NCBI GenBank assembly: GCA_031414535.1
Contig: JANNVQ010000016.1
Span: 1-18,271 of the forward strand
Source: Gemmatimonas sp.
GTDB lineage: Bacteria > Gemmatimonadota > Gemmatimonadetes > Gemmatimonadales > Gemmatimonadaceae
DNA length: 18,271 bases
Direction of reading: 5' to 3'
The translations under genes were made by a program, and so were the position numbers. Shown here piece by piece: positions 1,625 through 16,549 of the stretch. The notes beneath the pieces were generated by a model. It did no database searches and was not told the origin of the DNA. It saw nothing but the letters and a program-made list of their open reading frames with translations. How positions within the stretch are numbered: position 1 is the stretch's first letter; the number at the start of each line of letters is the position of its first letter.

Positions 1625-1759
1625 CTATAACGACGCTTGCTGCCGATGGCCGCGGGTGCGGATGGGTTGGGCGGGCTGGCCGCGATGTGACTTGATGGTT
1701 GCGGCCACCCCGCCCAACCCTTTTTATATGAGCGTCCACAGCAGAAGCACACGTTATGC
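1625..1759 (+). repeat. attC site 3 (135 bp)
   Basis: R'' CTATAAC, R' GTTATGC; L boxes GCTTGCTG/CAGCAGAAGC; internal stem GGGTTGGGCGGG/CCCGCCCAACCC. Confidence 0.92.
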
Positions 1760-1865
1760 CGACAGCCGAAGCCGCTGCCTTAACCACACACACCGACTTG
1801 GACAGCGCCGCGCGCGGTATAGTTTCCAGAGTAGCATTCGCCATCTCGCCGCCCACTTCCAAGCT

Positions 1866-2444
1866 ATGCGTCCAATACTCGTTTGCCTCGCCGCGCTCCT
1901 TGCGATCGCCCCGAGGCACATCAACGCCCAAGTCTCGCTGCGTCCCCATCCGAGCGGACGCGCATCGAGTGAGGTCGTCCTCGCGTATCCCCAAGGCCAA
2001 GCCCCGGCTGGCGCCGTCAATGTGTCCATCAAGGTGGACTACGGCGTTCCGCACCTGCGCGGGCGCACGGTGCACGTCGGCGACGTCGTGCCCTACGACG
2101 CGGCCTGGCGCACCGGCGCCAACGCCTCCACCACGCTTACGACCGGCGCGAACCTGCAGATGGGCGGCGTTGCCGTGCCGGCCGGCACCTACGTCGTATA
2201 CACGTTGCCTACTCGGCAAGGCTGGACACTGATTCTGCAGAAGCCCGTCGGACAGTCGGCCACGGCGTACGATGCCACGCATGACGTGGCGCGCATCCCG
2301 TTGCGGCCGTCGACGCTCGCGCAGGCAATCGAAAGCCTCACCATCTGGCTCATCCCCTCGACGGCCACGGATGCCGCGCGCGGCGAGTTTCGCCTGGCGT
2401 GGGGTACCGTCCAGGTCTCGACCGACTGGGTGGTCACTCCATAA
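1866..2444 (+). CDS. DUF2911 domain-containing secreted protein
   Basis: Motifs VDYG.P.LRGR, VPYD..WRTGAN.ST, VPAGTY.VYTLP, WTLIL; signal peptide from ATG 1866 (the longer ORF start at 1656 lies inside attC3). Confidence 0.8.
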   Translation: MRPILVCLAALLAIAPRHINAQVSLRPHPSGRASSEVVLAYPQGQAPAGAVNVSIKVDYGVPHLRGRTVHVGDVVPYDAAWRTGANASTTLTTGANLQMGGVAVPAGTYVVYTLPTRQGWTLILQKPVGQSATAYDATHDVARIPLRPSTLAQAIESLTIWLIPSTATDAARGEFRLAWGTVQVSTDWVVTP

Positions 2445-2531
2445 GTGGTACAGCCGACTTCTGGCAGTGCCAACGCCGAAGGCGCGAAGCATTGGCGATC
2501 ATCGACCGTGCATCCTGCGGAGAGATAGGCG

Positions 2532-2870
2532 ATGAACGGCGCGGTGCTCGGCAAGTCGGTGCTCTTCTTTACGCTTGCAGGCCTCTGCGAACTCGGAGGC
2601 GCGTACCTAATTTGGCTTTGGCTCAAAGGCGGACGATCCGCTTGGCTGGGCGTCTTGGGAGCCGCCGTCTTGGTGACCTACGGCTATCTGCACACGCAGC
2701 AGCCGTCGAACTATGGCCGCATCCAGGCCGCTTATAGCGGATATTTCATCGCACTTGCCTTGCTGTGGGGATGGCTGGTCGACAAGGTTGCTCCGGACAG
2801 ATATGATCTCGTTGGCGCGGCGATTGCCTTGGTCGGCGTGTCGGTCATTATGTACTGGCCAAGACCCTGA
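2532..2870 (+). CDS. ynfA: YnfA/UPF0060 family small membrane protein (SMR-like)
   Basis: LAGLCELGGAYLIWLWLK, GRIQAAYSGYFI, W.W.VD...PDRYD; 112 aa with four hydrophobic segments. Confidence 0.88.
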   Translation: MNGAVLGKSVLFFTLAGLCELGGAYLIWLWLKGGRSAWLGVLGAAVLVTYGYLHTQQPSNYGRIQAAYSGYFIALALLWGWLVDKVAPDRYDLVGAAIALVGVSVIMYWPRP

Positions 2871-2975
2871 TTCTTCAGCCGACCGCCGGGGTCGAACTCG
2901 CACCCAGCCGGAGCGGTTTCCCTCGGCTTCCTCAAATCGCTTTCGCGCGCGGTGATTTCTGATTACACTGCTTGT

Positions 2976-3404
2976 GTGAAGACTCGTGACCCAATCCTGC
3001 GCCGCCTCACCGCGTGCGTGCTCGCTCTGAGCTTCGGCCTCTACACCGCCGAGTCTCTGTTTGCGGACACTCACGATGGCGATGCGACTCACGAAGAGTT
3101 GGCCCGAGTCGACGGAGCCAGTGAGCACGCTGCGTTTCACCTCGCTCACGGCGACGAGGTTAAGGAATCGCAGCTCGGTGCACGCGAAGACTCTCCCGAG
3201 AATCACCCCGGTGAGCGCGCTCCCGGAGAACCTGGGCACGATCAACACGCCTGTCACTGTGCACACGTGCACAGCGGCTGGATGCAGTCCCCGCCGCAGT
3301 GCGAAGCAGAGCTCGCCGTCAACAGCGGCCAGCCGATGCAGTTCTGCGAGCAGACACCCGCGAGCCGTCAGGGCGAGCCCCAACTCCGGCCGCCGATCGG
3401 CTGA
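2976..3404 (+). CDS. His/Cys-rich exported leader protein upstream of czcC (CzcI/DUF2946-like)
   Basis: Signal-like N-terminus, many His, HACHCAHVH motif, C-terminal LRPPIG. GTG 2976 lies 6 nt after a TACACT -10-like hexamer (2964-2969); start uncertain. Confidence 0.6.
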   Translation: MKTRDPILRRLTACVLALSFGLYTAESLFADTHDGDATHEELARVDGASEHAAFHLAHGDEVKESQLGAREDSPENHPGERAPGEPGHDQHACHCAHVHSGWMQSPPQCEAELAVNSGQPMQFCEQTPASRQGEPQLRPPIG

Positions 3405-3411
3405 TTCTCTC

Positions 3412-3538: not shown

Positions 3539-3580
3539 TCAACGGCCGCATTGGAACGCACGCGAGAGCGCCCAGTCACG

Positions 3581-5026
3581 ATGCGACCCATCAATCGAGC
3601 GAGGCCAAGCAAAGGGAGACAATCACTCGTGGCATCTGCTCAGGAACAAACCGCACGTCCCAATCGACTCCGTCGATGCGTACAGCGCGCCGCACTCGTC
3701 TTCGCCGCGAGTGCGGCATGGGCGATCCCGCTCTCAGCGCAGAGCGTGACCCGCAACACCGCTACCGATACGCTCCACCTGGATATCAACGACGTGCAGC
3801 GGCTCGCGATCCGGCAGAATCTGAACCTCTTGGCCACACGACAGGAGTTGTCGATTGCCGCTGGCGCACTTCGTCAGGCGCGCGTCTATCAGTTCAATCC
3901 CGACTTCACGCTGCAAGCCGTAGGAGATGGCGGATCAGATGGACCGTTTGAGCTGTTGCTCACGCAGGAAATTGAGTGGGCAGGCCAGCGCGGACTTCGC
4001 ATCGGCGCGGCACGTGAGGGACAAGTCCGCGCGACCGCATTCGTTCAGAATGCGGCGCGAGTGTCGCTCGCCTCGGCAAGTGTCGGCTTCTACCGGGCAT
4101 TCGCTTCGGAGCGCCGGCTCGAAGTGGCGCGGGATGCTCTCGCGCTCACTGAGCGCCTAATCGCAGCCGTGCGCACGCAGCTCGCTGAAGGCGAAATCAG
4201 CACGATGGAGGCGAACCTGGCCGAAATTGAAGCGGGACGAGCGCGTGGTCGGGTCTTGAGCGCGCAACGCGCTGAACTCGGAGCGGCGTTCGAACTCAAG
4301 CAACTCCTCGGACTGAGACCTGAGACAGCGATTCGACTCGTCTCCGACTCGTTGAACACTTCAAGTCCGCTAGGCAAGCAACCCTCCCCGACCGAGGATT
4401 CGTTAGTCGCACTCGCGTTGGCGCGACGGCCGGACCTCGCAGCGAGCGAAGCGGCGGTACGCGAGATCGAGAAGCTAACGAGCCTCTCGCGCCGCTCGGC
4501 GTTCCCCAACGTGCGCATCGGCGCTGTTGTGGAGCGGGCGGAGAGTGGTGGCTCAGCTGACATCGGGCCCGCAATCGGCTTGAGCATCCCGCTCTTCAAC
4601 CGCAACCAAGGGCTTGTGGACCAACGCCGAGCGCTCACCGAACAGGCTCGACTTGATCAACGCGCCACCGAACTTGGAATCCGAAGCGACGTGCTGGAGT
4701 CCGCTCGAGCGTATCGCACGGCCTCCGAAGAGGTTGCTGTGTTCGAGACGACCGTGGTGCGACCAGCGCGCGCAAACATCGAACTGCTCGAGACGGCCTA
4801 CCGAGCCGGGAAAATTGCATTGCCAACGCTACTGCTGCTTCGCAACCAACTGCTCGACGCGGAGTTCGGCTATTGGGATGCTTGGCTTGCTCAGCGCGAA
4901 GCGTTGGTACGCCTCGAGGCAGCAACTGGTGCGCTTACTCCCACCGCCGCTGCTCTTCAACCACTCAATGCCGCCTCGGTCGACGGACCGACCAAGTCTG
5001 ATTCCTCATCCAGGACTTCCCCGTGA
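3581..5026 (+). CDS. czcC: TolC-family outer-membrane efflux protein (CzcC-like)
   Basis: OEP repeats (ALARRPDL, GLSIPLFNRNQG, AYRAGKI.L..LL); first gene of a C-B-A cluster; start uncertain (TTG 3551 or ATG 3581). Confidence 0.85.
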   Translation: MRPINRARPSKGRQSLVASAQEQTARPNRLRRCVQRAALVFAASAAWAIPLSAQSVTRNTATDTLHLDINDVQRLAIRQNLNLLATRQELSIAAGALRQARVYQFNPDFTLQAVGDGGSDGPFELLLTQEIEWAGQRGLRIGAAREGQVRATAFVQNAARVSLASASVGFYRAFASERRLEVARDALALTERLIAAVRTQLAEGEISTMEANLAEIEAGRARGRVLSAQRAELGAAFELKQLLGLRPETAIRLVSDSLNTSSPLGKQPSPTEDSLVALALARRPDLAASEAAVREIEKLTSLSRRSAFPNVRIGAVVERAESGGSADIGPAIGLSIPLFNRNQGLVDQRRALTEQARLDQRATELGIRSDVLESARAYRTASEEVAVFETTVVRPARANIELLETAYRAGKIALPTLLLLRNQLLDAEFGYWDAWLAQREALVRLEAATGALTPTAAALQPLNAASVDGPTKSDSSSRTSP

Positions 5027-6216
5027 TCACGCTGACGACATTTAGGCGGGTGCACAGCGCCTCGCCCAGCTTCTCCATACTCGTACTTGTAGGAGCACTC
5101 GCGATTGGCGCCTGCGGCGGTGGCGATGCCGCACCCGCTGAAACAGCCGCAGCAGAGGAACACGCGGGTGAAGAAGGAGTGGTCGTGCTCGACACGGCGG
5201 CGATTCGGCTCGGCGGCATTCAGGTAGGCGAAGTCCAATCAGTCACCACAACCGCCTTGGCTGTGACCGGCTCCATCACCTTCGACGCTGACCGAGTCAG
5301 CCACGTCGGTTCGCGCTCCAACGGACGCATCGTCGCGGTGCGAAGCGACCTCGGTGCGCAGGTTGCGCGCGGTCAAGCACTTGCTACGCTCGAAAGCGTC
5401 GAAGTGGGACAGATTCGTGCCGAAGAGCGCGAAGCTGAGGCGCTCCTGAAGATTGCGCAAGAGAACTACGCGCGTGAACAACGGCTCGCCGAGCAAGGCA
5501 TCTCGAGCCGCAAGGAACTGCTCGAGGCGGAGGCAATGCTGCGCCGAGGAGAAGCGGCGCTGCACAGCGCCGAGGACCGGCTGCAAGTCCTCGGTGCGTC
5601 GCACGACCACGGTGCGGGTGGTGAGTTCACACTCGTAGCGCCCTTCGCGGGCGTTGTCGTCGCGCGCGATGCCAGTCTCGGTGAGATGGCTACGCCGGCT
5701 GACACGCTCTTCACCGTGGCGGACCTCTCCGAAGTATGGATTGAACTCGACATCTTTGAGCGTGACCTCGCTCGCGTCAAGCGTGGCCAGTCAGTCGCAG
5801 TGCTCGTCTCGGCGTACCCGAGTCGCAGCTTTCCCGGCCGCATTGTTTACGTTGGCGACGTACTCGATCCCGCAAAGCGCACGGTCCGCGCGCGCGTTGA
5901 GATTCCGAATCGTGATGCCGCACTCAAGCCGGGGATGTTCGCCACGGCCAACATCCAAGTCGGCGGCGGCGGACCTCCGATGGCCGTCGTGCCACAGGAC
6001 GCCGTGCAAACGGTCGAGGGCAAGCTCGTCGTATTCGTGCCCGGCGACGCACCCGGAGAGTTTCGTACCGTCGCGGTCGAGGTGGGTCCCACCACCGACG
6101 GCAACCGCATCGTCATCCTGTCGGGCATTGCGCCAGGCAGTCGCGTCGTCACCGTAGGGGCCTTCGCGCTTCGATCCGAGCTCAGTAAGGGCGAGATCGG
6201 GGAGCACGGACACTGA
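5023..6216 (+). CDS. czcB: RND periplasmic adaptor (CzcB-like membrane fusion protein), lipoprotein
   Basis: Lipobox LAIGAC; APFAGVV, LFTVADLSEVW, LDPAKRTVRAR, LKPGMFA motifs; GTGA overlap with czcC. Confidence 0.9.
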   Translation: MITLTTFRRVHSASPSFSILVLVGALAIGACGGGDAAPAETAAAEEHAGEEGVVVLDTAAIRLGGIQVGEVQSVTTTALAVTGSITFDADRVSHVGSRSNGRIVAVRSDLGAQVARGQALATLESVEVGQIRAEEREAEALLKIAQENYAREQRLAEQGISSRKELLEAEAMLRRGEAALHSAEDRLQVLGASHDHGAGGEFTLVAPFAGVVVARDASLGEMATPADTLFTVADLSEVWIELDIFERDLARVKRGQSVAVLVSAYPSRSFPGRIVYVGDVLDPAKRTVRARVEIPNRDAALKPGMFATANIQVGGGGPPMAVVPQDAVQTVEGKLVVFVPGDAPGEFRTVAVEVGPTTDGNRIVILSGIAPGSRVVTVGAFALRSELSKGEIGEHGH

Positions 6217-6217
6217 T

Positions 6218-9200
6218 ATGCGCTCAGTCATCAGCTTCGTATTAAAGCAGCGGCTGCTCGTCCTCGGCTTGACGGCGATGCTCGTCGGCGTGGGAATCTG
6301 GAGCGCCCTCCGGCTGCCAATCGACGCAGTACCCGACGTCACGAACGTGCAGGTGCAAATCAACACAAACGCTGCAGCGCTACCTCCCACGGAGGTGGAG
6401 CGGCAGGTCACGCTACCCGTAGAGCTTGCGATGTTCGGCCTTCCGAACCTCGAAGAGATTCGTTCCATCTCAAAGTTTGGCCTGTCGCAAGTGACCGTGG
6501 TCTTCGAGGAAGGCACGGACATCTATTTCGCACGACAACAAGTGCAGGAGCGCTTGCAGCAGGCTCGCGAGGAGATTCCCGCAGGCTACGGAACGCCCGA
6601 GATGGGTCCCATCTCAAGCGGACTCGGCGAGGTATTCCAGTACTCTATTGAAGCGGACTCAGGTGCAGGCGTTGATGCCACGGAACTCAGGACCTTGCAA
6701 GACTGGCTCGTGGCACCACAGCTCCGCGCGGTCAAGGGAGTAGCTGAGGTCAATGCATTCGGTGGTTTCGAGAAGCAGTACCAGGTGCTCGTGCGCCCGG
6801 ATGCGCTCGTGCAGTACGACCTGACGCTCCAGCGCGTCCTCGACGCCATTGCATCAAACAACCAGAACGCGGGCGGCGGATATATCACGAAAGGCGCTGA
6901 GCAACTCGTGATTCGCGGAGTCGGTCAAGTTCAGGACCTCGACCAGATTCGTAGCATCGTCGTATCGAGTCGCGGCGGCACGCCAGTGCTTGTCAGTGAT
7001 ATCGCGGACGTCGTGATTGGTTCGACAATCCGTCAGGGCGCGGTGACCAAGGACGGAACTGGCGAAGTCGTGACCGGCATCGTGATGATGCGAATGGGTG
7101 AGAACTCGCGCACCGTCGTGCAGTCCGTCAAGGAGCGCTTCGCCGTGGCTGCGAGCAGCCTTCCACCGGGTGTGCGCCTCGTACCGTTTTACGATCGCGC
7201 GGAGCTCGTCAACCGCACGATCAAGACGGTGGAGAAGAATCTTATTGAGGGCGCTGTGCTGGTTGTTGTGGTGCTCTTCCTATTGCTGGGAAACATTCGT
7301 GGCGCGCTCATTGTGGCCGCGGCGATTCCGCTTTCGATGTTCTTCGCGCTCAGCGGAATGTTGAAGGCAGGCATCGCGGGCAGTCTAATGAGCCTCGGCG
7401 CAATTGATTTCGGCCTCGTGGTTGATGGGTCTGTCGTGATGGTCGAGAACTCGATGCGCCGTCTGGGCCACCGCAAGCCAGATGAAAGCTTCTTGCAGAC
7501 GGTGCTTGATTCCTGCGCTGAGGTTGCGCGTCCGATTCTCTTCGGTGTTGGCATCATCATCATCGTGTACTTGCCCATCCTCACGCTTGAGGGCGTTGAG
7601 GGCAAGATGTTCAGACCAATGGCGCTCACCGTAGTCTTTGCGCTCGTGGGCTCGTTGTTACTGACCTTCCTTCTCACACCCGTGCTCATTTCGCTCTTCT
7701 TGAAGGGCAAGGTTGAGGAGAAGGACGTTTGGCTGATGCAGAAGGCCAAGGCTATCTATGAGCCGGCGTTGGCGTGGACGCTCGCGCATAGCCGTCGTGT
7801 GATTACTGGTGCCGCCGCGGCGTTCGCGCTTGCAGTGGTCGCCGTGCCCTTCCTTGGGTCCGAGTTCATCCCGCGGCTGGATGAAGGCTCGTTCGCATTG
7901 CAGGTGCTTCGGCTCCCAAGCGTATCCCTCGAAGAATCGGTGCGTCAGACGACGCAACTGGAACAAGTGCTGATCGAGACGTTTCCCGATGAGGTGATTG
8001 ACGTCGTGGCCAAGACGGGACGCCCGGAGATTGCGACGGACCCGATGGGCGTGAACATCTCGGACATCTTCGTGATCCTCGCGCCGCCGGACAAATGGAC
8101 AAAGGCTGAGTCGAAAGCCGACCTCGAGCTGCAGATGTCAGAGGCATTGGGCAGGATTCCCGGTCTCGTGTTCAGCTTCAGCCAGCCGATTGAGTTGCGA
8201 GTAAACGAACTCATCGCCGGTGTGCGCAGCGACCTCGCCATCAAGATCTACGGCGAAGATCTAGGCCAGCTGAGCCAGACCGCCGCACAGGTGGTAGCCG
8301 CAGTCTCTCAGCTGGAGGGGGCAACGGGCTTCAAGGCACAGCAGCTGGAGGGAATGCCGCAGCTCCAAATCACTGTGTTGCCGGCCCAGCTGGCGCGTTA
8401 TGGCATCAATTCTGCTGATGTAATGCAGGTGGTGGAGGCGTTAGGAGGGGCGGAAGTTTCGCAGGTGCTTGAAGGCCAGCGTCGCTTCGCCCTAACCGTG
8501 CGCTTGCCGGCCGAGGTGCGCCAGAACGCCGCTACCATCAGCAACATCCTCGTTAGTGCGCCCACGGGCGAGCGTGTACCGCTGGGTACCCTTGCGCGGG
8601 TTGAAGAAGTGAATGGTCCGGCGGAGATCAGCCACGAGAATGGCTCTCGACTGGTCATCGTCGAAGGCAATGTGCGCGGGCGCGACATCGGAGGCTTTGT
8701 CGCTGACGTGCGGGCGCTCTTCGATGATGGCGTGATTGAGTTGCCGACTGGCTATCGTCCGGAATACGGTGGGCAGTTTGAGAATCTCGAACGGGCGAGT
8801 AAGCGGCTTACCCTGGTGGTGCCGCTGTCGCTGTTGCTGATCTTCCTGATGTTGTTTGCTACGTTCAACTCGCTGCGGCAGGCGGCGCTGGTGTTCACGG
8901 GCATTCCACTCGCCGCAGTGGGCGGTGTCTTTGCGCTCTTGCTGCGCGGGATGCCCTTCTCGATTTCCGCAGGCGTCGGTTTTATCGCGCTCTTCGGCGT
9001 CGCGGTGCTCAACGGCCTCGTGATGGTTTCATACATCAATGAATTGCGGCAGCACGGGCGCCCGCTGGTGGATGCAGTGCGCGAAGGTGCGATGACGCGT
9101 TTGCGTCCCGTGCTGATGACCGCGTTGGTGGCGAGTCTCGGATTCATTCCGATGGCGCTCTCAAGCGGTGCGGGCGCCGAGGTGCAGCGGCCGTTAGCGA

Positions 9201-9370: not shown

Positions 9371-9702
9371 AACTCGTCATCGCGTTTATTCAGCCATTTA
9401 TGGCGCCTGACGTTGTACAGGCACTCCATCGAGTGCCCGGGCTCACGGGCGCTACCTTCAGCGAAGTGAAGGGATTCGGTCGCGGTCGAGCCACTCTCGG
9501 CGCGAACGCCGAAGCTCTCTACGGCACCGTGGACAAGTTGAGAATCGAAGTGGTGGTCAGCGACGATCTTGAAGACCAAGTCGTACGAGCGATTCGCACG
9601 GCGGCGCACACAGGCAATCGAGGAGATGGGAAGATTTACGCCGTCGCGGTCACTCGGGCCCTGCGTATTGCCACTGGGGAGGAGGGAGACAATGCGGTAT
9701 GA
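9367..9702 (+). CDS. P-II family signal transduction protein
   Basis: MKLVIAFIQPF, EVKGFGR, KLRIEVVV, AHTGNRGDGKIY P-II signatures; ATGA overlap with czcA. Confidence 0.9.
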   Translation: MKLVIAFIQPFMAPDVVQALHRVPGLTGATFSEVKGFGRGRATLGANAEALYGTVDKLRIEVVVSDDLEDQVVRAIRTAAHTGNRGDGKIYAVAVTRALRIATGEEGDNAV

Positions 9703-12163
9703 TGACGCAGCAGCACGCACCATTCGCCTCGACCTCCCCTTGCTGTTGCCCGAGGTGCAGGACCTCCGGGACGCTTGCGTGGAGCGTCTGGTCGCACTGA
9801 TAGAACAACGGGCCGGCGTGCAGAGTGTACACGTTGTTGCGCTAGGCGCGGAGGAATGCGACGTCGCAGACAAGAATGGCGATATGCGATCGGCGGAGCC
9901 CACGCAGTCGCAACTCTGCCTGCACTACAACCCCGATCAGCTCTCGCTCGAGCACATCACAGCGCTGGCGCGATCCGCCGGCGCTGAGGTGACAGAACGT
10001 TATGGACACTTGATCCTACCATTCCGTGCGATCAGCAGTCAGGATGGCGGAACGCGCTTGGAAACGGAGTTGCGCTCGCTAGAAGGAGTGACCGCGGCCG
10101 TTGTCAACTTGGCGGGACAGGTGGCGCGCGTTGAGTTCGACCGCAAGCGAGTAGATAAAGCGACGATTGAAGCACGTATGAAAACAGTCAGTGCTCCAGC
10201 TGACGCGGCCGCTCTAGAAGAAAGCGGTTGGTACACGCGCAACCGCGAACTCGCGTGGAGCTTGGCATCCGGAGTGCTGCTCACGGGCGCGTGGCTTCTC
10301 GAGAAGTTCACGGTTGCGCCACGCGCACTTTCCATCGGCATTTTTGTCGCTGCGTACGTATTTGGCGCTCGCGACAACGTCGGCCACTTCATCGGTGACC
10401 TGCGGCGAGGAAAGTGCCACTTCAATATCGACCTCTTGATGGTCGTCGCGGCGCTCGGTGCCGCGATACTTGGCGAGTGGGTGGAGGGCGCGCTTCTCCT
10501 CTTCTTGTTCAGTCTCGGACACGCCCTTGAGCACTATGCATTGGGACGTGCACGCAATGCCATCGCGGCTCTTACTGAACTCGCTCCGCAAACAGCGATT
10601 GTTCAGCGCGATGGGCGCGAGACAGCGATACCCATTGCTGAGGTCCGCTCGGGTGATCGCGTGGTCGTGAAGCCAGCCGAGCGAATCCCAGTTGACGGCA
10701 TCGTGCGTGAAGGACGCTCGGCCGTGAATCAGGCACCCATCACCGGCGAGAGCGTGCCAGTAGATAAGGCACCGGACGAGACGGTGTTCGCTGGCTCAGT
10801 AAATGGTGATGGCGCGCTCGTCGTAGAAGTGACGGCGGCCATCGGCGACCGCACACTCGATCGCGTCATCAAGCTCGTCGCGGAGGCGCAGACGCAGAAG
10901 GCGCCCACTCAGCTGTTCACTGACCGCTTTGAGCGCATCTTCGTTCCGATCGTGCTCGTGGCCGACTTGTTGCTCATCGTCCTGCCGCCTTTGCTCGGAT
11001 TCTGGACGTGGAGCGAGTCGTTTTATCGAGGGATGGCACTTCTTGTGGCAGCATCCCCCTGCGCACTCGCACTCGGGACTCCAGCCGCTGTTCTCTCTGG
11101 CATCGCGCAAGCGGCTCGAAGGGGCGTGCTCATCAAGGGCGGCGCGTATCTCGAGGTACTTGGTTCCATCGATACGCTGGCTTTGGATAAGACGGGGACG
11201 ATTACGCGTGGCGAGCCTGAGGTGACAGATCTTCGTCCGTTTGACGGCGTGGATGAAAACCGCCTGCTCGCGATGACGGCCGCCGTGGAGAAGCGTTCGC
11301 AACATCCTTTGGCGCGTGCGATCATCAAAGCGGCCGAGCAACGTGGGCTCGAAGTACCCGCGGCCGGCGATTTGGAGTCGGTAACGGGACGCGGAATCCG
11401 CTCGACGGTTGACGGTGCTCGCGTTGAAGTGGGACGACTGCTGATGTTCGAGGAGACTGGTGCACAAGTGCCGGTAAGCGTTCGTGCGAATGTTGCAACA
11501 TTGGAGACGGCAGGACGGACCACCGTTGTTGTGCGCCATCGAGTGGTGTCAGCTGGTGCAACTTCGATAGACGATGGCAATGGCTGGCTCGGGGTCATCG
11601 GTGTCGCTGACGAACCGCGTCCTGGCGTGAGAGAAACACTTGATCGCCTGCGCGCTGTGGGCGTCAAGCGCATCGTGATGCTCACGGGTGACAATGCCGG
11701 CGTTGCCAAGGCCGTGGGCGATGCTGTCGGCGTCACGAACGTGCGCGCTGGACTGTTGCCGGAGGACAAGGTGAAGGCCATCCAAGAGTTGGCTCAGCTC
11801 GGGCGCGTGGCGATGGTGGGCGATGGCGTGAATGACGCGCCGGCGCTTGCGCACGCGACCGTTGGAATTGCGATGGGCGGTGCGGGCACTGCCGCTGCGC
11901 TCGAGACGGCGGACGTGGCGCTGATGGGTGACGATTTGGGACGTCTGCCCTTCGCAATCGGCTTGAGTCGCACAGCCCGCGGCATCATCAAGCAGAATCT
12001 CTTTGTCTCACTCGGAGTCATCCTGCTCTTGGTGGTGGCCACAACGACCGGCCTTGTCGGCATCGGAGGAGCGGTCGTGATGCACGAGGGAAGCACCTTG
12101 GTCGTGATTGCGAACGCATTGAGATTGTTGCGCTACGGGCCATCCGAGGATGCAGCCACGTGA
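9692..12163 (+). CDS. czcP: Heavy-metal P1B-4 type ATPase (CzcP-like)
   Basis: TGES, SPC (ASPCAL), DKTGT, HP, GDGVNDAPAL and HEGST motifs; N-terminus LDLPLLLP...CVERL resembles CzcP as I recall it; ATG 9692 follows GGAGGAGG. Confidence 0.85.
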   Translation: MRYDDAAARTIRLDLPLLLPEVQDLRDACVERLVALIEQRAGVQSVHVVALGAEECDVADKNGDMRSAEPTQSQLCLHYNPDQLSLEHITALARSAGAEVTERYGHLILPFRAISSQDGGTRLETELRSLEGVTAAVVNLAGQVARVEFDRKRVDKATIEARMKTVSAPADAAALEESGWYTRNRELAWSLASGVLLTGAWLLEKFTVAPRALSIGIFVAAYVFGARDNVGHFIGDLRRGKCHFNIDLLMVVAALGAAILGEWVEGALLLFLFSLGHALEHYALGRARNAIAALTELAPQTAIVQRDGRETAIPIAEVRSGDRVVVKPAERIPVDGIVREGRSAVNQAPITGESVPVDKAPDETVFAGSVNGDGALVVEVTAAIGDRTLDRVIKLVAEAQTQKAPTQLFTDRFERIFVPIVLVADLLLIVLPPLLGFWTWSESFYRGMALLVAASPCALALGTPAAVLSGIAQAARRGVLIKGGAYLEVLGSIDTLALDKTGTITRGEPEVTDLRPFDGVDENRLLAMTAAVEKRSQHPLARAIIKAAEQRGLEVPAAGDLESVTGRGIRSTVDGARVEVGRLLMFEETGAQVPVSVRANVATLETAGRTTVVVRHRVVSAGATSIDDGNGWLGVIGVADEPRPGVRETLDRLRAVGVKRIVMLTGDNAGVAKAVGDAVGVTNVRAGLLPEDKVKAIQELAQLGRVAMVGDGVNDAPALAHATVGIAMGGAGTAAALETADVALMGDDLGRLPFAIGLSRTARGIIKQNLFVSLGVILLLVVATTTGLVGIGGAVVMHEGSTLVVIANALRLLRYGPSEDAAT

Positions 12164-12248
12164 GGGAGCCAACGAACAGCGCGGGCTATTTGCGACTTGC
12201 CCTCGACGCAGAGGCGACTCTCGCGGGACCAGCTCCGAACCAGGAACC

Positions 12249-12290
12249 TTGACAGAATCCATAAGTTAGTACATCCTAACTTATGGATTC
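12249..12290 (+). promoter_or_regulatory. Sigma70 promoter (TTGACA-N17-CATCCT) overlapped by a perfect 15-bp inverted-repeat operator
   Basis: TTGACA 12249-12254; GAATCCATAAGTTAG (12255-12269)-TACATC-CTAACTTATGGATTC (12276-12290) covers the -10 and ATG 12283. Confidence 0.8.
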
Positions 12291-13578
12291 CACCGCAAGA
12301 ACACCTCAAGCGAGCCTTTCACTTCGTCCTTTGATTGTGAGCACGCTCGCCGTCGCCGTAATCGTCTCCGCCTGCGGCGAGCCGTTCTTCCCCGACGCGC
12401 CCCGCGACGATTCCATTCTCGAAGGTCCCATCGCTGGGCTCACCGCGCCTCAGCACGCGCTCTTCTTGCGAGGCGACGCCGAATTCGGACGCGCCTTCGC
12501 AGCGACCGACGGTCTCGGGCCACTCTTTATCGCACAGTCCTGCGACGCTTGTCACGCGGGCGACGGCAAAGGCCATCCAGTCTTCGACATCACGCGCTTT
12601 GGACGCTACGAGGGCGCGACCTTCGATCCGATGATTGCTGACGGCGGTCCGCAGCTACAGAATCGCGCCATCCTCGGATACCTCGCCGAAACTCGGCCAT
12701 CCGAGTCCACCGTGATGGCGCGCTTCACACCGCCGGCCGTCACAGGGTTGGGCCTCTTGGAAGCCGTTGATGATTCGAGCATTCTCGCGCTTGCCGATTC
12801 GGCCGACCTCAATGCAGATGGGATCTCCGGGCGCGCGAGTTGGGTGACAGCGTCGCCGTTCATTGATGCGCTCGCGGCCGAAGGAGTGCGCGGAACTGCG
12901 GGAACTCCCGCGCGTCATCTCTCGTGGTCGGGACGATATCTGGGACGCTTCGGCAAGAAGGCGACCACCATCACGCTCCGCCATCAGACGGTGAATGCCT
13001 ATTCCGAGGATATGGGCCTGACCACCGATGATCATCCGGACGATCTGGTACTTCCTGGATTGCCAGGCTCAAGCGGAGACGGCGTCACCGATCCCGAAGT
13101 TGGCTCCGGTATCGTCAGTAGCGTGGTCTTTTACCTCCGAACACTGCGCCCGCCGCCGCGACGCGATGCAGCCAATTCAGAAGTAATCGCTGGGCGCCAG
13201 CGATTCATCGAGATTGGCTGCGCGAACTGCCACGTGATGACGATGCGCACTGGGAGGTCCTCAATCGCAGCGCTCGATCGGATCGAGTTTGAGCCGCTCA
13301 CCGATTTGTTGTTGCACGATATGGGTCCCGATCTCGACGATGGCTACACGGAGGGGAACTCCACGTCGTCCGAGTGGCGCACTGCGCCGCTCTGGGGCAT
13401 TGGCTTGGCCGAGCGCGCGACCGGTGGCACGCAGTTCCTGCTGCACGACGGCCGCGCTCGCTCATTGCGCGCCGCGATTGGATTTCACGGCGGCGAAGCG
13501 TCCGCAAGTCGCGCGGCATTCAATGCCCTCTCAACTGCCGAGCAAGAGCGGCTCCTGCGCTACTTGAGGTCGCTATGA
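12283..13578 (+). CDS. Di-haem oxidoreductase family (DHOR/DUF1111-like) c-type cytochrome lipoprotein
   Basis: Two CxxCH motifs (CDACH, CANCH); DGLGPLF, D.NADGISGR, GRFGKKA, TDLLLHDMG, EWRTAPLWGIG, LHDGRAR; lipobox VSAC. Confidence 0.88.
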   Translation: MDSTARTPQASLSLRPLIVSTLAVAVIVSACGEPFFPDAPRDDSILEGPIAGLTAPQHALFLRGDAEFGRAFAATDGLGPLFIAQSCDACHAGDGKGHPVFDITRFGRYEGATFDPMIADGGPQLQNRAILGYLAETRPSESTVMARFTPPAVTGLGLLEAVDDSSILALADSADLNADGISGRASWVTASPFIDALAAEGVRGTAGTPARHLSWSGRYLGRFGKKATTITLRHQTVNAYSEDMGLTTDDHPDDLVLPGLPGSSGDGVTDPEVGSGIVSSVVFYLRTLRPPPRRDAANSEVIAGRQRFIEIGCANCHVMTMRTGRSSIAALDRIEFEPLTDLLLHDMGPDLDDGYTEGNSTSSEWRTAPLWGIGLAERATGGTQFLLHDGRARSLRAAIGFHGGEASASRAAFNALSTAEQERLLRYLRSL

Positions 13579-14030
13579 CGATTCCGCGACGCGCATTCTT
13601 AGTTCGCGCACAACAGGTCGCACTGGGAGCCTGCGCGCTCGGTGCCCGCGCAGCCTTGCCGATGATTGGCATTGGATGCGCTTCCGTCCCGTATGTGATT
13701 GGGGAACGCCGCGACAACGAAGTGCACCTGCCATTCACGGCGCTCGACAAGAACGGCCGAGCATTAGTGGAAGTACCCGAGTTCGACCTCCCCATCTTTG
13801 TACGACGCAGTGCGGGCGGGACGACTACTGCGCTCTCAACAGAGTGCACACATCGTGGCTGCGAGGTGGAGCCCTCTACCGATCGGCTGGTCTGTCCCTG
13901 CCACGGCAGCGAGTACAATCTGGAAGGTGCCGTGCTTCAAGGACCGGCGGAGCGACCGCTGCTTCGCTTCGCGGTCCGTGAGCTGCCAGACCGCCTCGTC
14001 ATTGAGCTAACCGCGCGAGGCAACCTCTAA
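13575..14030 (+). CDS. Rieske [2Fe-2S] protein with Tat-like signal
   Basis: CTHRGC and CPCHGS boxes, GPAERPL; N-terminal PRRAFL; ATGA overlap with the di-haem gene gives the start at 13575. Confidence 0.9.
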   Translation: MTIPRRAFLVRAQQVALGACALGARAALPMIGIGCASVPYVIGERRDNEVHLPFTALDKNGRALVEVPEFDLPIFVRRSAGGTTTALSTECTHRGCEVEPSTDRLVCPCHGSEYNLEGAVLQGPAERPLLRFAVRELPDRLVIELTARGNL

Positions 14031-15238
14031 TGCGCTTTGACATTGTCACGCGACTTGCTGTGCACGGCGCATTGGCGCTCGTGGCTTTTGCAGCAGGCAC
14101 GCCTCTACGCGCGCAGGATGACTCGTCGTCCGTGCAGGGGAGCATCTACCAGCGCCCATTCATCTCGTCATCAGGCCGCACGGCGATTGGAGGATACGTC
14201 GAAGCAAACGCACTCTACACACGAGAGGAAGGCATCGGGCCTGGCCTCTCGATGGAGTTGCGCCGCTTCAATATTTTCCTTTTCTCATCCATCGGTTCGA
14301 GAGTTCGATTTCTCTCAGAGCTCGAGTTCGAGCACGGCACGCAAGAGATTGCTCTCGAGACTGCGATCGTCGATTTTCGAGTGTCGTCCGCGCTGGTGCT
14401 TCGCGCGGGCATCCTGCTGCCGCCCGTAGGCGCGTTCAACCAGAATCACGACGGCCCGAGATGGGAATTCGTCGACCGGCCGCTCGTCTCAACGGAGATC
14501 ATCCCGTCCACGCTCTCGGAAGTCGGCTTTGGCGTGAACGGTCGCGTCTCGCCAGCGTCGGGACTGACGATCACGTATGACGCATACCTCACGAACGGAC
14601 TCGGCGAAGGCGTCGTCCTCAATTCAACCGGGCGCACGCATCTCGCGAGCGGTAAACGTGCGGGGCAGTTCGCCGGCGACGACAATGGAGTGCCCGCGCT
14701 ATCCGGGCGGCTGGCGCTGCGCTCACGGAGACTTGGTGAGGCTGGAGTTTCGTGGTACGGAACCACCTACAACACCTTTCGGCTAGACGGTGCGGAGATT
14801 GACGAACGCAGAGGCCTTTCCTTACTCGCCGTCGATGTGTCCACGGTGTTGCCACGTGCGATTGAGGTCCGAGGCGAGGCCGCGCTTGCTCGGATTGAGC
14901 TTGCCCCGGGAATGGTCGATGTACTTGGCGACGATCAATGGGGCGCGCATGTGGATGTCATCGCGCCCGTATATCGTGTAGCGGGCGGCCCTTTCCGCGG
15001 AGGTACTGTAAACTTCATCACGCGTCTTGAGTACGTGGATTTCAACGTTGGGCACTTCGCTTCCACAGGGGGCGTCATCGGCGATGACCGCACGGCCGTC
15101 ACTCTCGGCGCCAGCGTCCGCCCCGTAGCGGGCGCGGTGCTCAAGTTGAATTATCGGCGAGAGTGGGCGCACGACATTCTGCGGAACGCGGCCACGAGGT
15201 CTGGCGCATTGCAGCTTGGCGTCGCTACGTACTTCTAG
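14030..15238 (+). CDS. Putative outer-membrane beta-barrel/porin-like protein
   Basis: Signal peptide ending LRA-Q; amphipathic strands (RFLSELEFEH, LRAGILLPPVG); C-terminal LGVATYF BAM-type signal; TAATG coupling to the Rieske gene. Confidence 0.72.
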   Translation: MRFDIVTRLAVHGALALVAFAAGTPLRAQDDSSSVQGSIYQRPFISSSGRTAIGGYVEANALYTREEGIGPGLSMELRRFNIFLFSSIGSRVRFLSELEFEHGTQEIALETAIVDFRVSSALVLRAGILLPPVGAFNQNHDGPRWEFVDRPLVSTEIIPSTLSEVGFGVNGRVSPASGLTITYDAYLTNGLGEGVVLNSTGRTHLASGKRAGQFAGDDNGVPALSGRLALRSRRLGEAGVSWYGTTYNTFRLDGAEIDERRGLSLLAVDVSTVLPRAIEVRGEAALARIELAPGMVDVLGDDQWGAHVDVIAPVYRVAGGPFRGGTVNFITRLEYVDFNVGHFASTGGVIGDDRTAVTLGASVRPVAGAVLKLNYRREWAHDILRNAATRSGALQLGVATYF

Positions 15239-15272
15239 TTTCGTCACGTACCGCAATCACAACACAGCGAAT

Positions 15273-15734
15273 ATGAAGGTCGACCTCTCAACGACGCTCC
15301 CCTGCACCTTCGAACAGGCGGTTGCGCAGGTTCAGACGACTCAACTCCTAGAGTATGTGGCCCGCCCTCTCGTTCGCTTCTCCCCCGCGGGCGGAGGCAC
15401 GTTTCCACCGGCGTGGACGGTCGGAACTCATTGGGTCAATCTTTGGCTCGTCGGCTTCTTGCCTCTGGGCAGACAGGCAATCGTCATCACATTCCCGATG
15501 GTCGAGTCTGGCTTCGCATTACGCGACGCTGGGCACAGTGCACTCATTCACACCTGGGACCATCTCATAACCATTGAGCGCCGTCGCGACGCTGTGATCT
15601 ATCGCGATCAAGTTGACGTCCGCGCTGGAGTTCTTACTCCATTCGCATGGCTGTTCGCGTCGATCTTCTACCGGCATCGGCAGCGTCGGTGGAGAAGGCT
15701 GGTTGATGGCAGCTTTGACTACGGCACGGCTTAA
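15273..15734 (+). CDS. Hypothetical protein, possibly SRPBCC/START-like fold
   Basis: ATG 15273; WDHLITI...YRDQVDVRAG...FYRHRQRRW pattern seen in small SRPBCC-like proteins; recognition by eye only. Confidence 0.55.
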   Translation: MKVDLSTTLPCTFEQAVAQVQTTQLLEYVARPLVRFSPAGGGTFPPAWTVGTHWVNLWLVGFLPLGRQAIVITFPMVESGFALRDAGHSALIHTWDHLITIERRRDAVIYRDQVDVRAGVLTPFAWLFASIFYRHRQRRWRRLVDGSFDYGTA

Positions 15735-15763
15735 TTCACTGTTTAACCGAGAGATTGTTTGTA

Positions 15764-16219
15764 ATGCGTATTCCCCCGGTGTTGATGCTTGTTGCGGCCG
15801 TCTCCCTGAGTTTCATTGCGGCTCGCATTGATCCTCTTGCAAGTTCTTCCGTTGAGCTTCAGGTGCTCGGCGCGCTAATTGCCATCGTCGGGTCGGCTAC
15901 GGCCTTGGCAGGCGTCTTGGCGTTCCGTCGCCAGCGAACCACTGTCGATCCCCGATATCCAGAACGCGCGCGCGCACTTGTTGCCGACGGCATATATCGC
16001 TGGACGCGCAATCCGATGTATGTGGGATTTGTGTGCGTGGGGATTGGCGCAGCAGTTGCGCTGGGATCACTTCTCGCACTTGCGGGCCCCGCTGCTCTGG
16101 CCCTGTACTTAGATCGCGTACAAATTCCTGCTGAAGAACGCGCGCTGCAGGAGCGCTTCGGCCAGAGCTTTCATTCGTACGTCCTTTCCGTCCGACGGTG
16201 GCTCGGACGGCGGAACTAG
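15764..16219 (+). CDS. Isoprenylcysteine carboxyl methyltransferase (ICMT/PEMT) family membrane protein
   Basis: TTVDP, LVADGIYRWTRNPMYVG, EERAL..RFG..F..Y...VRRW motifs. Confidence 0.88.
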   Translation: MRIPPVLMLVAAVSLSFIAARIDPLASSSVELQVLGALIAIVGSATALAGVLAFRRQRTTVDPRYPERARALVADGIYRWTRNPMYVGFVCVGIGAAVALGSLLALAGPAALALYLDRVQIPAEERALQERFGQSFHSYVLSVRRWLGRRN

Positions 16220-16453
16220 AGCTACGGACCGGCAATCGGCGTCCCGTGCGGATCATTGGTAGCATTGCCGACCGGTACAGCCATTCGTTTGATGACTAGG
16301 TCCGACGCCGCGAACTGGAGGAGCTGAGCGCCGGCACATGCCCGCCCTGTTCGAAGATTTCTCGTGCAGAGCTATGTGCGGACGAGGCCCGGCCGTTGTG
16401 GACGCTAGCTCATTGAGGGTTCGGAAGAAATCTTGGAGGCGCGATTGCGCGCG

Positions 16454-16549
16454 GCATAACGAAGCTTGCTGGCTGACAGCCACGCTATTGTAGCGTCCGC
16501 TTCGCGGCCGCATTTTATGGAGTGTCTGCAGCAGAAGCACACGTTACAC
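16454..16549 (+). repeat. attC site 4 (96 bp, short variant)
   Basis: R'' GCATAAC, GCTTGCTGGCTGACAG / CTGCAGCAGAAGC, R' GTTACAC; shortened central region with two mini-hairpins. Confidence 0.88.

What the first reader, a model, noticed from the sequence alone, without database searches (positions are those of the whole stretch)
1754..16543. Giant 14.8-kb, 13-gene integron cassette carrying a complete heavy-metal efflux and redox module
Seen: between attC3 and attC4 lie 13 co-oriented ORFs (DUF2911, ynfA, leader, czcCBA, P-II, czcP, di-haem, Rieske, beta-barrel, SRPBCC-like, ICMT). I found no attC in any intergenic gap and no transposase or recombinase. The start GTTATGCCG is the exact reverse complement of CGGCATAAC at attC4, as in the 0.7-0.85 kb neighbours. 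Known: cassettes are typically single promoterless ORFs of about 0.5-1 kb. Inference: an operon-scale island with internal promoters is packaged as one IntI-mobilisable unit, which bears on how cassettes form and how metal resistance spreads. Caveat: only a few of the nine positions discriminate between cassettes, and the match is also expected if DNA was inserted into a pre-existing small cassette.
Basis: partly seen in the sequence, partly recalled or inferred. Interest (0 to 1): 0.92.

Follow-up and report, generated by a model that had tools for sequence, protein, structure and literature searches.

The report
Giant metal-efflux integron cassette family
A 14.8-kb, 13-gene heavy-metal efflux block sits in a chromosomal integron array as one recombination-site-bounded cassette, and close relatives carry 10-12 kb versions that have changed array position, so integron cassettes can be far larger than the roughly 2-4 kb usually assumed.

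Summary
Window 1754-16543 (14,790 bp) starts at the G|TT crossover point of attC3. It ends in its own 95-nt attC4, holds 13 co-oriented genes, and has no internal attC and no transposase.

Stronger evidence comes from relatives. Three of 36 congeners searched carry the same core (His-rich protein, czcCBA, P-II, czcP) as a single attC-bounded unit of 9.9-12.1 kb. In two of them the 12.1-kb unit is 97.0% identical, and the identity begins and ends exactly at the cassette boundaries. One copy is the first cassette at attI and the other lies behind another cassette's attC. The adjacent intI genes are only 76% identical and rpoB 88.8%.

Contigs from four studies contain the window's block with both ends in attC sequence. 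Three of them also show a variant with a 2.6-kb internal deletion.

My reading is a family of operon-scale czc cassettes in Gemmatimonadales-type integrons. They are recombined at their ends and remodelled internally. Excision of this copy as a circle and internal promoters are not shown.

The parts
48..185 (+). attC1, the end of a cassette that begins off the contig
   Evidence: R1 model 136.3 bits
782..918 (+). attC2 of the cassette 183-915 (hypothetical ORF 80-787)
   Evidence: R1 157.6 bits; 8/9 start/R'' match
916..1753 (+). Toxin-antitoxin cassette whose genes lie on the opposite strand: Fic/Doc 931-1326 (-) and MazE/AbrB-type antitoxin 1330-1557 (-)
   Evidence: Pfam PF02661 E 2e-14 and PF04014 E 3.4e-10; 9/9 start/R'' match
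1625..1759 (+). attC3. Its G1753|T1754 is the left boundary of the giant cassette
   Evidence: R1 111.8 bits; bottom strand folds at -44 kcal/mol, z -7.1
1754..16543 (+). Giant cassette, 14,790 bp, 13 co-oriented genes, no internal attC
1866..2444 (+). DUF2911 protein with a signal peptide
   Evidence: PF11138 E 1e-34. A DUF2911 gene also lies in the G028 cassette
2532..2870 (+). YnfA/UPF0060 small membrane protein
   Evidence: PF02694 E 5e-39; NF002586 133 bits, over the cut-off
2952..3404 (+). His-rich 150-aa protein at the head of the czc core (no family)
   Evidence: No Pfam or NCBIfam match. It is 52-55% identical to the first gene of the czc core in G017, G028 and G015, with invariant His/Cys motifs
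3551..5026 (+). Outer-membrane factor (CzcC-like); start uncertain
   Evidence: PF02321 E 4e-32
5023..6216 (+). Periplasmic adaptor (CzcB family)
   Evidence: PF16576 E 2e-48; TIGR01730 178.6 bits, over the cut-off
6218..9370 (+). CzcA/CusA-family heavy-metal RND pump
   Evidence: TIGR00914 1254.8 bits, cut-off 701
9367..9702 (+). P-II-like small protein
   Evidence: PF00543 E 1.8e-18
9569..12163 (+). P1B-type heavy-metal ATPase (Zn/Cd/Pb type). The true start is probably later than 9569
   Evidence: TIGR01525 592 bits and TIGR01512 516 bits, both over their cut-offs. Relatives align from residue 13-63 on
12249..12290 (+). TTGACA followed by a perfect 15-bp inverted repeat (6-nt spacer) that overlaps the DHOR start codon; a possible promoter/operator
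   Evidence: Read; self-match. Function is inferred only
12283..13578 (+). Di-haem oxidoreductase (DHOR family)
   Evidence: PF06537 E 8e-65
13374..14030 (+). Rieske [2Fe-2S] protein; start uncertain (overlaps DHOR)
   Evidence: PF00355 E 1.2e-11
14030..15238 (+). 402-aa protein of no family; porin-like as a lead only
   Evidence: No Pfam match. The nearest Atlas clusters are hypothetical proteins, one of them with Porin_O_P in 17% of members
15216..15734 (+). 172-aa protein, DUF8410-like (linked to SRPBCC) as a lead
   Evidence: Atlas score 0.98 to DUF8410 clusters; no match in the Pfam copy searched
15755..16219 (+). PEMT/ICMT-family membrane methyltransferase
   Evidence: PF04191 E 3e-12, PF04140 E 4e-9
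16454..16549 (+). attC4, the giant cassette's own attC. It is of the short 95-nt subtype. R'' is CGGCATAAC and G16543 is the right boundary
   Evidence: R1 78.9 bits, E 1.5e-21. It is 84-93% identical to the six other short attCs that blastn aligned along nearly the whole site. The bottom strand folds as an R-box/L-box hairpin with bulges, -21.2 kcal/mol, z -2.4
16544..17256 (+). ParD-like (16617-16819) and ParE (16819-17109) toxin-antitoxin cassette with attC5 (17127-17262)
   Evidence: PF05016 E 1.5e-15; R1 153.1 bits; 9/9 start/R'' match
17257..18271 (+). Cassette with a 303-aa membrane-like ORF (17276-18187) and a cut attC6 (18182-18261)

Best explanation
Window 1754-16543 is a single, very large gene cassette of a sedentary chromosomal integron. 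The organism is Gemmatimonadales-like: the nearest named records are Gemmatimonadales and Gemmatimonas MAGs. The cassette belongs to a family of operon-scale czc cassettes found in this genus.

What defines the unit. Its left end is the G|TT crossover point of the preceding attC. Its right end is its own short attC, whose R'' box pairs with the cassette's first bases.

What it carries. Between the ends lies a self-contained divalent-metal export set. A P1B ATPase moves Zn/Cd-type cations from cytoplasm to periplasm. CzcCBA moves them from periplasm to the outside. A conserved His-rich protein and a P-II-like protein are probable accessory or regulatory parts. YnfA, DUF2911, a di-haem/Rieske/porin-like periplasmic module and a membrane methyltransferase are added to this core.

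How it behaves. I infer that the integron integrase recombines the unit at its two ends, as it does for any cassette. I infer that homologous or illegitimate recombination adds, removes and moves genes inside it.

Shown:
- the anatomy of the unit;
- the absence of internal attC sites;
- the existence of the family;
- exact-boundary relocation of a sister cassette, including one copy at attI;
- internal indel variants.

Inferred:
- that this copy can still be excised and inserted as a 14.8-kb circle;
- the metal specificity;
- expression from promoters of its own.
For: (1) Anatomy. attC3 and attC4 are detected at E 2.9e-31 and 1.5e-21. Nothing better than E 1.1 lies inside the block with filters off. 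blastn finds no attC piece inside. No transposase or recombinase is found in 13 genes plus 78 other frames. There are no terminal inverted repeats.

(2) Integron setting. The 16-nt attC 3' motif occurs 76 times in the genome, against 0 for the reversed control. A full integron integrase is present (TIGR02249, 413.7 bits), followed by attI and an attC on contig C31.

(3) The start/R'' rule holds 9/9 here, as in 50 of 66 cassettes. This is weak on its own.

(4) Family. In one search, 3 of 36 congeners (G015, G017, G028) carry the same core (His-rich protein, czcCBA, P-II, czcP). In all three it lies in one attC-bounded unit with no internal attC with filters off. In G028 an attC lies at both ends. 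In G017 the end attC is split by an insertion sequence. In G015 attI lies upstream and an attC at the end. All three start G|TTATGCCGAC and end in an attC with R'' CGGCATAAC. In G017 the unit sits inside a 57-kb array 1.77 Mb from intI.

(5) Relocation. The G015 and G028 units are 96.98% identical over 12,121 nt. The identity starts 2 nt before the TTATGCC start and stops at the G|TTA of the attC.
- In G015 the left flank is the intI 3' end plus attI, all within the same contig. No attC is found there.
- In G028 the left flank is another cassette's attC. At least five attCs lie between the unit and intI.
- The downstream cassettes differ.
- The adjacent intI genes are 76% identical and the rpoB regions 88.8%.

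(6) Independent data. Contigs of 4 runs from 4 studies hold the window's block. Their ends fall at 1733/1739 (inside the attC3 3' end), and in three runs at 16481-16537 (inside attC4); the last piece listed for the fourth run (X4) ends at 16315. One run covers the block in a single 12,783-nt contig at about 99% identity.

(7) Function. Curated family scores are over their cut-offs for CzcA, the adaptor, the P1B ATPase and YnfA. The DHOR-Rieske-402-aa module follows another czcA paralogue in G028 and G026.
Against: - No excised circle, empty site or second array position was seen for this 14.8-kb copy. The public runs were contigs, which cannot show rare forms.
- The 9-mer and 11-mer end motifs are the commonest type in this genome: 11 of 82 starts, of which 7 continue with AC. 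Shared ends between species are therefore weak evidence of common descent.
- attC4 is no more similar to the G017 attC (92.5%) than to paralogous short attCs of G000 (84-93%).
- Published experiments show that excision falls with cassette length. A 4-kb cassette was not recovered at all in a capture assay (PMC5371416 and bioRxiv 10.64898/2026.03.17.712381, passages seen).
- The G015 first-position copy could also arise by attI x attC deletion of intervening cassettes, without a 12-kb circle.
- The 5' part (1757-2900) and the 3' part (15240-16453) have no close relative in 54 other genomes of the genus. The full 13-gene form is therefore known from one species only.
- The czc core is closer to a czc operon without detected attC sites in another family (G047: CzcA 89.6% aa) than to the congeners' cassettes (85-86%).
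Confidence: 0.75

Rival explanations
1. Accreted or fused cassette that is now immobile. An ordinary cassette, or several neighbouring ones, grew into a 14.8-kb unit by insertion of chromosomal DNA or by loss of internal attC sites. It is a cassette only in form and is too long to be excised.
For: - The content is mosaic. The czc core is closest to an operon with no detected attC sites in G047.
- The DHOR module occurs elsewhere outside arrays, next to another czcA.
- YnfA and DUF2911 lie before the core here but after it in G028/G015, and are only 34-37% identical.
- A 2,555-bp deletion variant exists.
- The terminal 1.2 kb is unique to this species.
- Published data say long cassettes recombine poorly.
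Against: - The czc core alone already forms a 9.9-kb single cassette in G017 and a 12.1-kb one in G028/G015. The large size therefore predates this copy.
- The 12.1-kb unit did change context with boundary-exact breakpoints.
- No attC remnant is seen in any intergenic gap.
Confidence: 0.15
2. Chromosomal backbone lying between two separate attC arrays. The block was never a cassette, and the arrays merely abut it.
For: - IntegronFinder-type rules (attCs more than 4 kb apart) would split the locus into two elements (PMC4889954, passage seen).
- In G017 the block divides a 57-kb attC cluster that is far from intI.
Against: - The block starts at the exact G|TT of an attC and ends in a co-oriented attC, here and in three other species that have different neighbours.
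- In G015 it abuts attI directly.
- G015/G028 identity stops at both boundaries, while intI is only 76% identical.
- All 13 genes run in the cassette direction.
Confidence: 0.04
3. Assembly artefact: unrelated contigs were joined through repeated attC sequence.
For: The draft is broken at attC repeats. Many small contigs end in attCs.
Against: - Only the neighbours could be mis-joined. The block's own first bases follow an attC 3' end in contigs of four studies, and its last bases run into attC4 in three of them.
- The interior has no repeats.
- One run covers the block in a single contig at depth 83.
Confidence: 0.03

Closest known systems
Gene cassettes of sedentary chromosomal integrons (for example the Vibrio cholerae superintegron)
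   Same: - The unit is bounded by G|TT crossover points.
- It has its own 3' attC with R''/L''...L'/R' boxes and a foldable bottom strand.
- Its start is complementary to its own R''.
- It sits in a long array of homogeneous attCs, with an IntI encoded in the genome and toxin-antitoxin cassettes next to it.
   Different: - It is 14.8 kb with 13 genes, against a median of 756 bp in this genome. The published figure for 'largest known cassettes' is about 2 kb (PMC4889954, passage seen).
- Published assays tested cassettes only up to about 3 kb. A 4-kb cassette was judged immobile.
- intI is co-oriented with the array here.
Czc cobalt-zinc-cadmium resistance determinant (CzcCBA plus CzcP) of Cupriavidus metallidurans. 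The name and gene order are recalled and were not retrieved here
   Same: It has an outer-membrane factor, an adaptor and a CzcA-family RND pump, together with a Zn/Cd-type P1B ATPase. Curated family scores are over their cut-offs.
   Different: - No czcRS two-component regulator and no CzcD lie in the unit.
- It has a P-II-like gene between czcA and czcP and a His-rich leader protein of no known family.
- It is carried in an integron cassette rather than on a plasmid or island.
Multi-gene and fused integron cassettes (toxin-antitoxin pairs, phage-defence cassettes)
   Same: More than one ORF lies between two attCs. This genome also has a 5.4-kb three-gene cassette.
   Different: The scale differs: 13 genes, against 2-3 genes and at most about 4 kb in the passages I saw. 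Those papers argue that defence systems in integrons are streamlined because of size constraints.
Metal-resistance genomic islands and transposons (for example the tRNA-linked czc 'cassettes' of Alteromonas, PMC4119200, passages seen)
   Same: These are operon-scale czc modules that vary between strains.
   Different: Here there is no tRNA target, integrase, transposase or terminal repeats inside the unit. The boundaries are attC crossover points.

Membership tests
Integron gene cassette | Lies in an array of attC sites in a genome that encodes an integron integrase | tested here: met
   76 attC 3' motifs in the genome. IntI TIGR02249 scores 413.7 bits against a cut-off of 265. Five full attCs and one cut attC lie in the window.
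Integron gene cassette | Left boundary at the G|TT of the preceding recombination site, right boundary in its own attC | tested here: met
   G1753|T1754 and G16543|T16544.
Integron gene cassette | Own attC has R''/L'' and L'/R' boxes and a bottom strand that folds into a bulged hairpin | tested here: met
   R1 78.9 bits, E 1.5e-21. Fold -21.2 kcal/mol, z -2.4, with the R box paired and single-base bulges on the R''/L'' arm. The fold signal is weaker than for the long attCs (z -7 to -8.5).
Integron gene cassette | The cassette's first bases are complementary to its own R'' box | tested here: met
   9/9. The chance expectation is 0.14 because this is the commonest type.
Integron gene cassette | No further recombination site inside the unit | tested here: met
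   Own-family model with filters off: best in-block match E 1.1. A crude generic AAC...GTT scan was uninformative. A curated generic attC model was not available.
Integron gene cassette | Typical form: one promoterless ORF, about 0.5-1 kb | tested here: not met
   13 ORFs and 14,790 bp, against a median of 756 bp. This is a typical feature rather than a definitional one.
Integron gene cassette | Excised as a circle and inserted at attI by IntI | not testable with these tools
   Only contigs could be laid. Indirect support comes from the sister 12.1-kb cassette. It is found at attI in G015 and behind an attC in G028, with boundary-exact 97% identity.
HME-RND (CzcCBA-type) efflux system | CzcA/CusA-family RND permease with adaptor and outer-membrane factor in one operon | tested here: met
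   TIGR00914 1254.8 bits (cut-off 701), TIGR01730 178.6 bits (cut-off 94.9), PF02321 E 4e-32. Metal specificity was not tested.
P1B-type heavy-metal ATPase | Scores over the curated cut-off of the heavy-metal P-type ATPase family | tested here: met
   TIGR01525 592.4 bits (cut-off 346) and TIGR01512 (Cd family) 516 bits (cut-off 313.5). The ZntA exception model scores 483 bits, below its cut-off of 1240.
Transposon or genomic island | Own transposase or integrase, terminal repeats or a tRNA target | tested here: not met
   No Rfam family, and so no tRNA, reaches its gathering threshold anywhere in the window.

The most novel reading that the evidence does not exclude
Integron integrases in this Gemmatimonadales-type lineage mobilise whole 10-15 kb operons as single cassettes in nature. 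If so, the assumed size ceiling of about 2-4 kb on cassettes does not hold for every integron. Standard integron finders that cluster attCs within 4 kb would then miss a class of operon-scale cassettes through which complete metal-resistance systems spread. The family would also give a natural series in which to study how a cassette is formed and grows. The series runs from a czc operon without detected attC sites, to a 9.9-kb cassette, then 12.1 kb, then 14.8 kb.
Probability: 0.5. Interest if true: 0.88.

Novelty: new variant of a known kind. Interest (0 to 1): 0.8.

Why it matters
Integron cassettes are treated as small units, mostly of one gene.

- Experiments link length to poor excision (PMC5371416).
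- Recent work explains the streamlining of cassette-borne defence systems by this size limit and infers that a 4-kb cassette is immobile.

A family of 10-15 kb cassettes, with one member that changed integron and array position as an exact unit, would show three things. Whole operons can enter the cassette pool. Arrays are being split and mis-classified as integron plus CALIN. Complete metal-resistance systems can move by this route in soil, sediment and sludge bacteria.

It also gives a concrete system for two open questions. One is what limits cassette size. The other is how an attC becomes attached to a gene or an operon.

Tried and rejected
- Generic attC scan. A home-made scan paired AAC...GTT with a fold test. 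It recovered only 1 of 5 true attCs as controls. It gave 20 in-block candidates against 8-15 in shuffles, 16 of them inside coding sequence; the other four are two sites, one in a doubtful ORF and one across a start codon, each counted on both strands. It was uninformative, and I rely on the covariance model.
- Exact 43-mer of the block's left end in metagenome contigs: 0 matches.
- P-II protein as a probe with 10-kb flanks. In metagenome contigs the relatives were at most 50% identical (54 loci). In genome contigs the best were 77%, 69% and 62% (37 loci). No further attC-flanked copy was found among the 8 loci scanned (6 of these 37 and 2).
- The block's 5' and 3' ends were searched in 54 other genomes of the genus. 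The 5' end gave only two weak DUF2911 matches and the 3' end gave none.
- Contig 'joints' such as 1762->16452 and 1756->17130. They have 24-30 nt sides and unknown intervening letters. They are what other cassettes with the same common ends would give, so I do not read them as empty sites or deletions. No circle junction was listed.
- The sigma-70 promoter scan was no better than shuffles.
- The R1 model finds no attC anywhere in G047. It may be blind to that family's sites, so 'czc is not a cassette in G047' also rests on the absence of flanking repeats. It remains provisional.
- Earlier findings of this scan: none for this genome.
- Literature searches listed no paper describing a czc operon or any unit over 5 kb as an integron cassette. 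I read only the listings and the passages cited, and supplements were not opened. This is 'not found in these searches', not proof of absence.
- Structure prediction, complex prediction and the large protein searches were not used. They would not have changed the verdict.

Full report
**Setting.** The window is the whole 18,271-bp contig C16 of a 58-contig, 3.70-Mb draft with 63.8% G+C.
- The genome holds 76 copies (42 forward, 34 reverse) of the 16-nt attC 3' motif at up to one mismatch. The reversed control gives none.
- Many small contigs begin and end in attCs.
- A full integron integrase (TIGR02249, 413.7 bits, cut-off 265) lies on contig C31. It is followed on the same strand by attI and a first cassette.
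- The nearest named records found with one of the block's proteins are Gemmatimonadales and Gemmatimonas MAGs. I treat the organism as a member of that order.

**The observation.** I aligned 70 attC sites of this genome and built a covariance model from them, R1.
- With speed filters off, R1 finds attCs at 48-185, 782-918, 1625-1759, 16454-16549 and 17127-17262, plus a cut one at 18182-18261. The best match inside 1760-16450 is 7.9 bits, E 1.1, within czcP.
- blastn of the block against the genome finds attC similarity only at its two ends.
- The crossover points are G1753|T1754 and G16543|T16544.
- Thirteen co-oriented genes are confirmed: DUF2911, YnfA, a His-rich 150-aa protein, an outer-membrane factor, a CzcB-type adaptor, CzcA (1254.8 bits), P-II, a Zn/Cd-type P1B ATPase (592 bits), DHOR, Rieske, a 402-aa protein, a 172-aa protein and a PEMT/ICMT methyltransferase.
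- The Atlas gives a porin lead for the 402-aa protein and a DUF8410/SRPBCC lead for the 172-aa protein.
- No gene, and 0 of 78 other open frames of at least 80 codons, matches a transposase or recombinase. There are no terminal inverted repeats.
- attC4 belongs to a short (94-96 nt) attC subtype. The subtype makes up 9 of the 70 sites aligned. attC4 is 84-93% identical to the six other short sites that blastn aligned along nearly the whole site. Its bottom strand folds into the expected bulged hairpin.

**How much the 9-mer is worth.** The rule that a cassette's first nine bases complement its own R'' holds 9/9 in 50 of 66 cassettes here, 8/9 in 11, and less in 5. However, GTTATGCCG/CGGCATAAC is the commonest type: 11 of 82 starts and 10 of 70 R'' boxes. 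A random attC would therefore fit this start with probability 0.14. The match is compatible with one cassette but does not prove it.

**Size.** The median of 66 cassettes is 756 bp. The next largest are 5,395, 2,785, 2,405 and 2,377 bp.

**Relatives.** I searched the whole block in 60 related genomes, of which 36 are congeners. Long matches to the czc core appeared in three congeners (G015, G017, G028) and in one genome of another family (G047).

In all three congeners the core (His-rich protein, czcC, czcB, czcA, P-II, czcP) lies in a single unit that ends in an attC. No internal attC is found with filters off; the best score inside is E 0.32.
- G017: an attC, then G|TTATGCCGAC, 212 nt, the six-gene core, about 410 nt, and a short attC with R'' CGGCATAAC. 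That attC is split by an IS110-family element. The unit is about 9.9 kb without the IS and 11.3 kb with it. It lies inside a 57-kb attC cluster 1.77 Mb from that genome's intI.
- G028: an attC, then G|TTATGCCGAC, 0.8 kb that I read by eye as a reversed transporter-gene fragment (not checked against any family), the core, then YnfA, DUF2911 and a CDF transporter, then a long attC with R'' CGGCATAAC. The unit is 12.1 kb. At least five attCs lie between it and intI.
- G015: contig C29 opens with the last 110 nt of an integron-integrase gene. About 70 nt of attI follow, and then G|TTATGCCGAC and the same 12.1-kb unit. No attC is detected in that left flank. The head of C29 is identical to the tail of contig C105, which carries the full intI (443 bits).

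**The decisive comparison.** The G015 and G028 units are 96.98% identical over 12,121 nt.
- The alignment begins 2 nt before the TTATGCC start and ends at the G|TTA of the attC.
- Downstream, G015 continues TTAGGGCG... and G028 continues TTATGCCAGT....
- The adjacent intI genes are only 76% identical, and the rpoB regions of the two genomes 88.8%.

A 12.1-kb unit has therefore recently come to lie in two different integrons. It is at attI in one and several cassettes down the array in the other. The breakpoints are exactly where the integrase cuts. Two routes are possible:
- excision as a circle followed by attI x attC insertion, which is the simplest reading;
- transfer of a larger piece followed by integrase-mediated deletions on both sides.

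Either route needs recombination at the unit's own ends. It is met for a sister cassette, not for the window's own copy.

**The window's copy in other data.** Contigs from four runs of four studies hold the block.
- One run, probably the source, matches with no differences.
- One run covers 1733-16481 in a single 12,783-nt contig at about 99% identity but lacks 12622-15176. That gap takes out most of DHOR, the Rieske gene and the 402-aa gene.
- The same joint occurs in two further runs. One of those also has a contig with the module present.
- In all four runs the contigs start at 1733 or 1739, inside the attC3 3' end. In three of them the contigs stop at 16481-16537, inside attC4; the last piece listed for the fourth run (X4) ends at 16315.

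The block with its attC ends is thus real and widespread, and its interior varies. Contigs cannot show circles or empty sites.

**Mosaic content.**
- The czc core of the window is closer to G047 (CzcA 89.6%, CzcB 84.8%, CzcP 76.6% aa) than to the congeners' cassettes (85-86%, 66-73%, 67-70%). This holds although rpoB says the opposite: 75.4% to G047 against 83-87% to congeners.
- In G047 I found no flanking repeats around the operon. R1 sees no attC anywhere in that genome, so the model may be blind there.
- The DHOR-Rieske-402-aa module occurs outside arrays in G028, G026, G033 and G012. In G028 and G026 it lies directly after another czcA paralogue. That links it functionally to RND metal efflux.
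- YnfA and DUF2911 recur in the G028/G015 cassette, but after czcP and at only 34-37% identity.
- The first 1.1 kb and the last 1.2 kb of the window's cassette have no close relative in 54 other genomes of the genus.

The ends are kept while genes are gained, lost and moved inside.

**Mechanism.**
- Shown: the gene families.
- Inferred from what is established for these families: the P1B ATPase exports Zn/Cd-type cations to the periplasm, and CzcCBA expels them across the outer membrane.
- The His-rich protein has invariant HDGDATH, HxAHGD and GHDxHxCHxAHxHxGW motifs in the four copies aligned. It is a likely periplasmic metal binder or sensor.
- P-II may regulate.
- The di-haem/Rieske/porin-like module is a periplasmic redox unit of unknown substrate.
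- No regulator gene is present.
- The sigma-70 scan gives 1 site against 2.9 expected. The only promoter hint is a TTGACA next to a perfect 15-bp palindrome over the DHOR start codon.

**What is known.**
- Excision assays went up to about 3 kb and showed length dependence for poorly folding attCs (PMC5371416, passages).
- A 2026 preprint recovered every V. cholerae cassette except a 4-kb one and inferred that it is no longer mobile (10.64898/2026.03.17.712381, passages).
- A 2024 preprint attributes streamlined defence cassettes to size constraints (10.1101/2024.07.02.601686, passages).
- A single heavy-metal efflux gene in a cassette has been reported (PMC2426708, abstract passage).
- The Alteromonas czc 'cassettes' are tRNA-island modules, not integron cassettes (PMC4119200, passages).
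- Five searches listed nothing describing an operon-scale czc integron cassette. I saw listings and passages only.

**Verdict.** It is a new variant of a known kind.

Still open:
- whether this 14.8-kb copy is still excised;
- how it is transcribed;
- whether the family arose once or repeatedly.

Noticed in passing
L044 18100-19530 (G017:C1, about 2561100-2562530): An IS110-family element (DEDD_Tnp_IS110 plus Transposase_20, 347-aa ORF on the minus strand) is inserted inside the short attC of the G017 czc cassette. It splits the site into a 5' part and a 3' part.
   Followed up: partly
L016 12196-17732 (G000:C9, about 42095-47631, cassettes on the minus strand): This is the second-largest cassette of the genome, 5,395 bp with no internal attC (filters off). 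It has three co-oriented genes: a 288-aa reverse transcriptase (RVT_1), a sodium:solute symporter and a methyltransferase-like protein.
   Followed up: partly
window 931-1557 and 16617-17109: The giant cassette is flanked on both sides by toxin-antitoxin cassettes. To the left lies Fic/Doc with a MazE/AbrB-type antitoxin, on the opposite strand. To the right lies ParD-like/ParE. Such cassettes are said to stabilise arrays, but whether they protect this unit was not tested.
   Followed up: no
L027 (G000:C31), L043 1-180 (G015:C29), G028:C1 26717-27655, G017:C1 784030-784968: In all four genomes the integron integrase gene is on the same strand as the cassettes and is transcribed towards the array. 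This differs from the divergent arrangement of the classical mobile integrons. G015 and G028 each have two integron integrases.
   Followed up: partly
window 12622-15176: A 2,555-bp deletion variant occurs in contigs of three runs from three studies. It removes most of DHOR, the Rieske gene and the 402-aa gene, with 3 nt shared at the joint. The full form occurs in two runs.
   Followed up: partly
window 12249-12290 and 3508-3540: A perfect 15-bp inverted repeat with a 6-nt spacer lies next to a TTGACA and overlaps the DHOR start codon. A second, 10-bp inverted repeat lies between the His-rich gene and czcC. Both are possible operators or RNA hairpins.
   Followed up: no
window 18225-18271: The last 45 nt of the contig are runs of G followed by an A/T-rich stretch. 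They depart from the attC consensus, and the R1 score for this site is only 14.3 bits. This looks like a poor-quality contig end rather than biology.
   Followed up: no
L045 (G047:C2 476000-495999): The closest czc core to the window's lies in another family. It sits among two further RND pump genes, with no flanking repeats. It shows what the same operon may look like without attC sites, but the attC model may be blind in that genome.
   Followed up: partly
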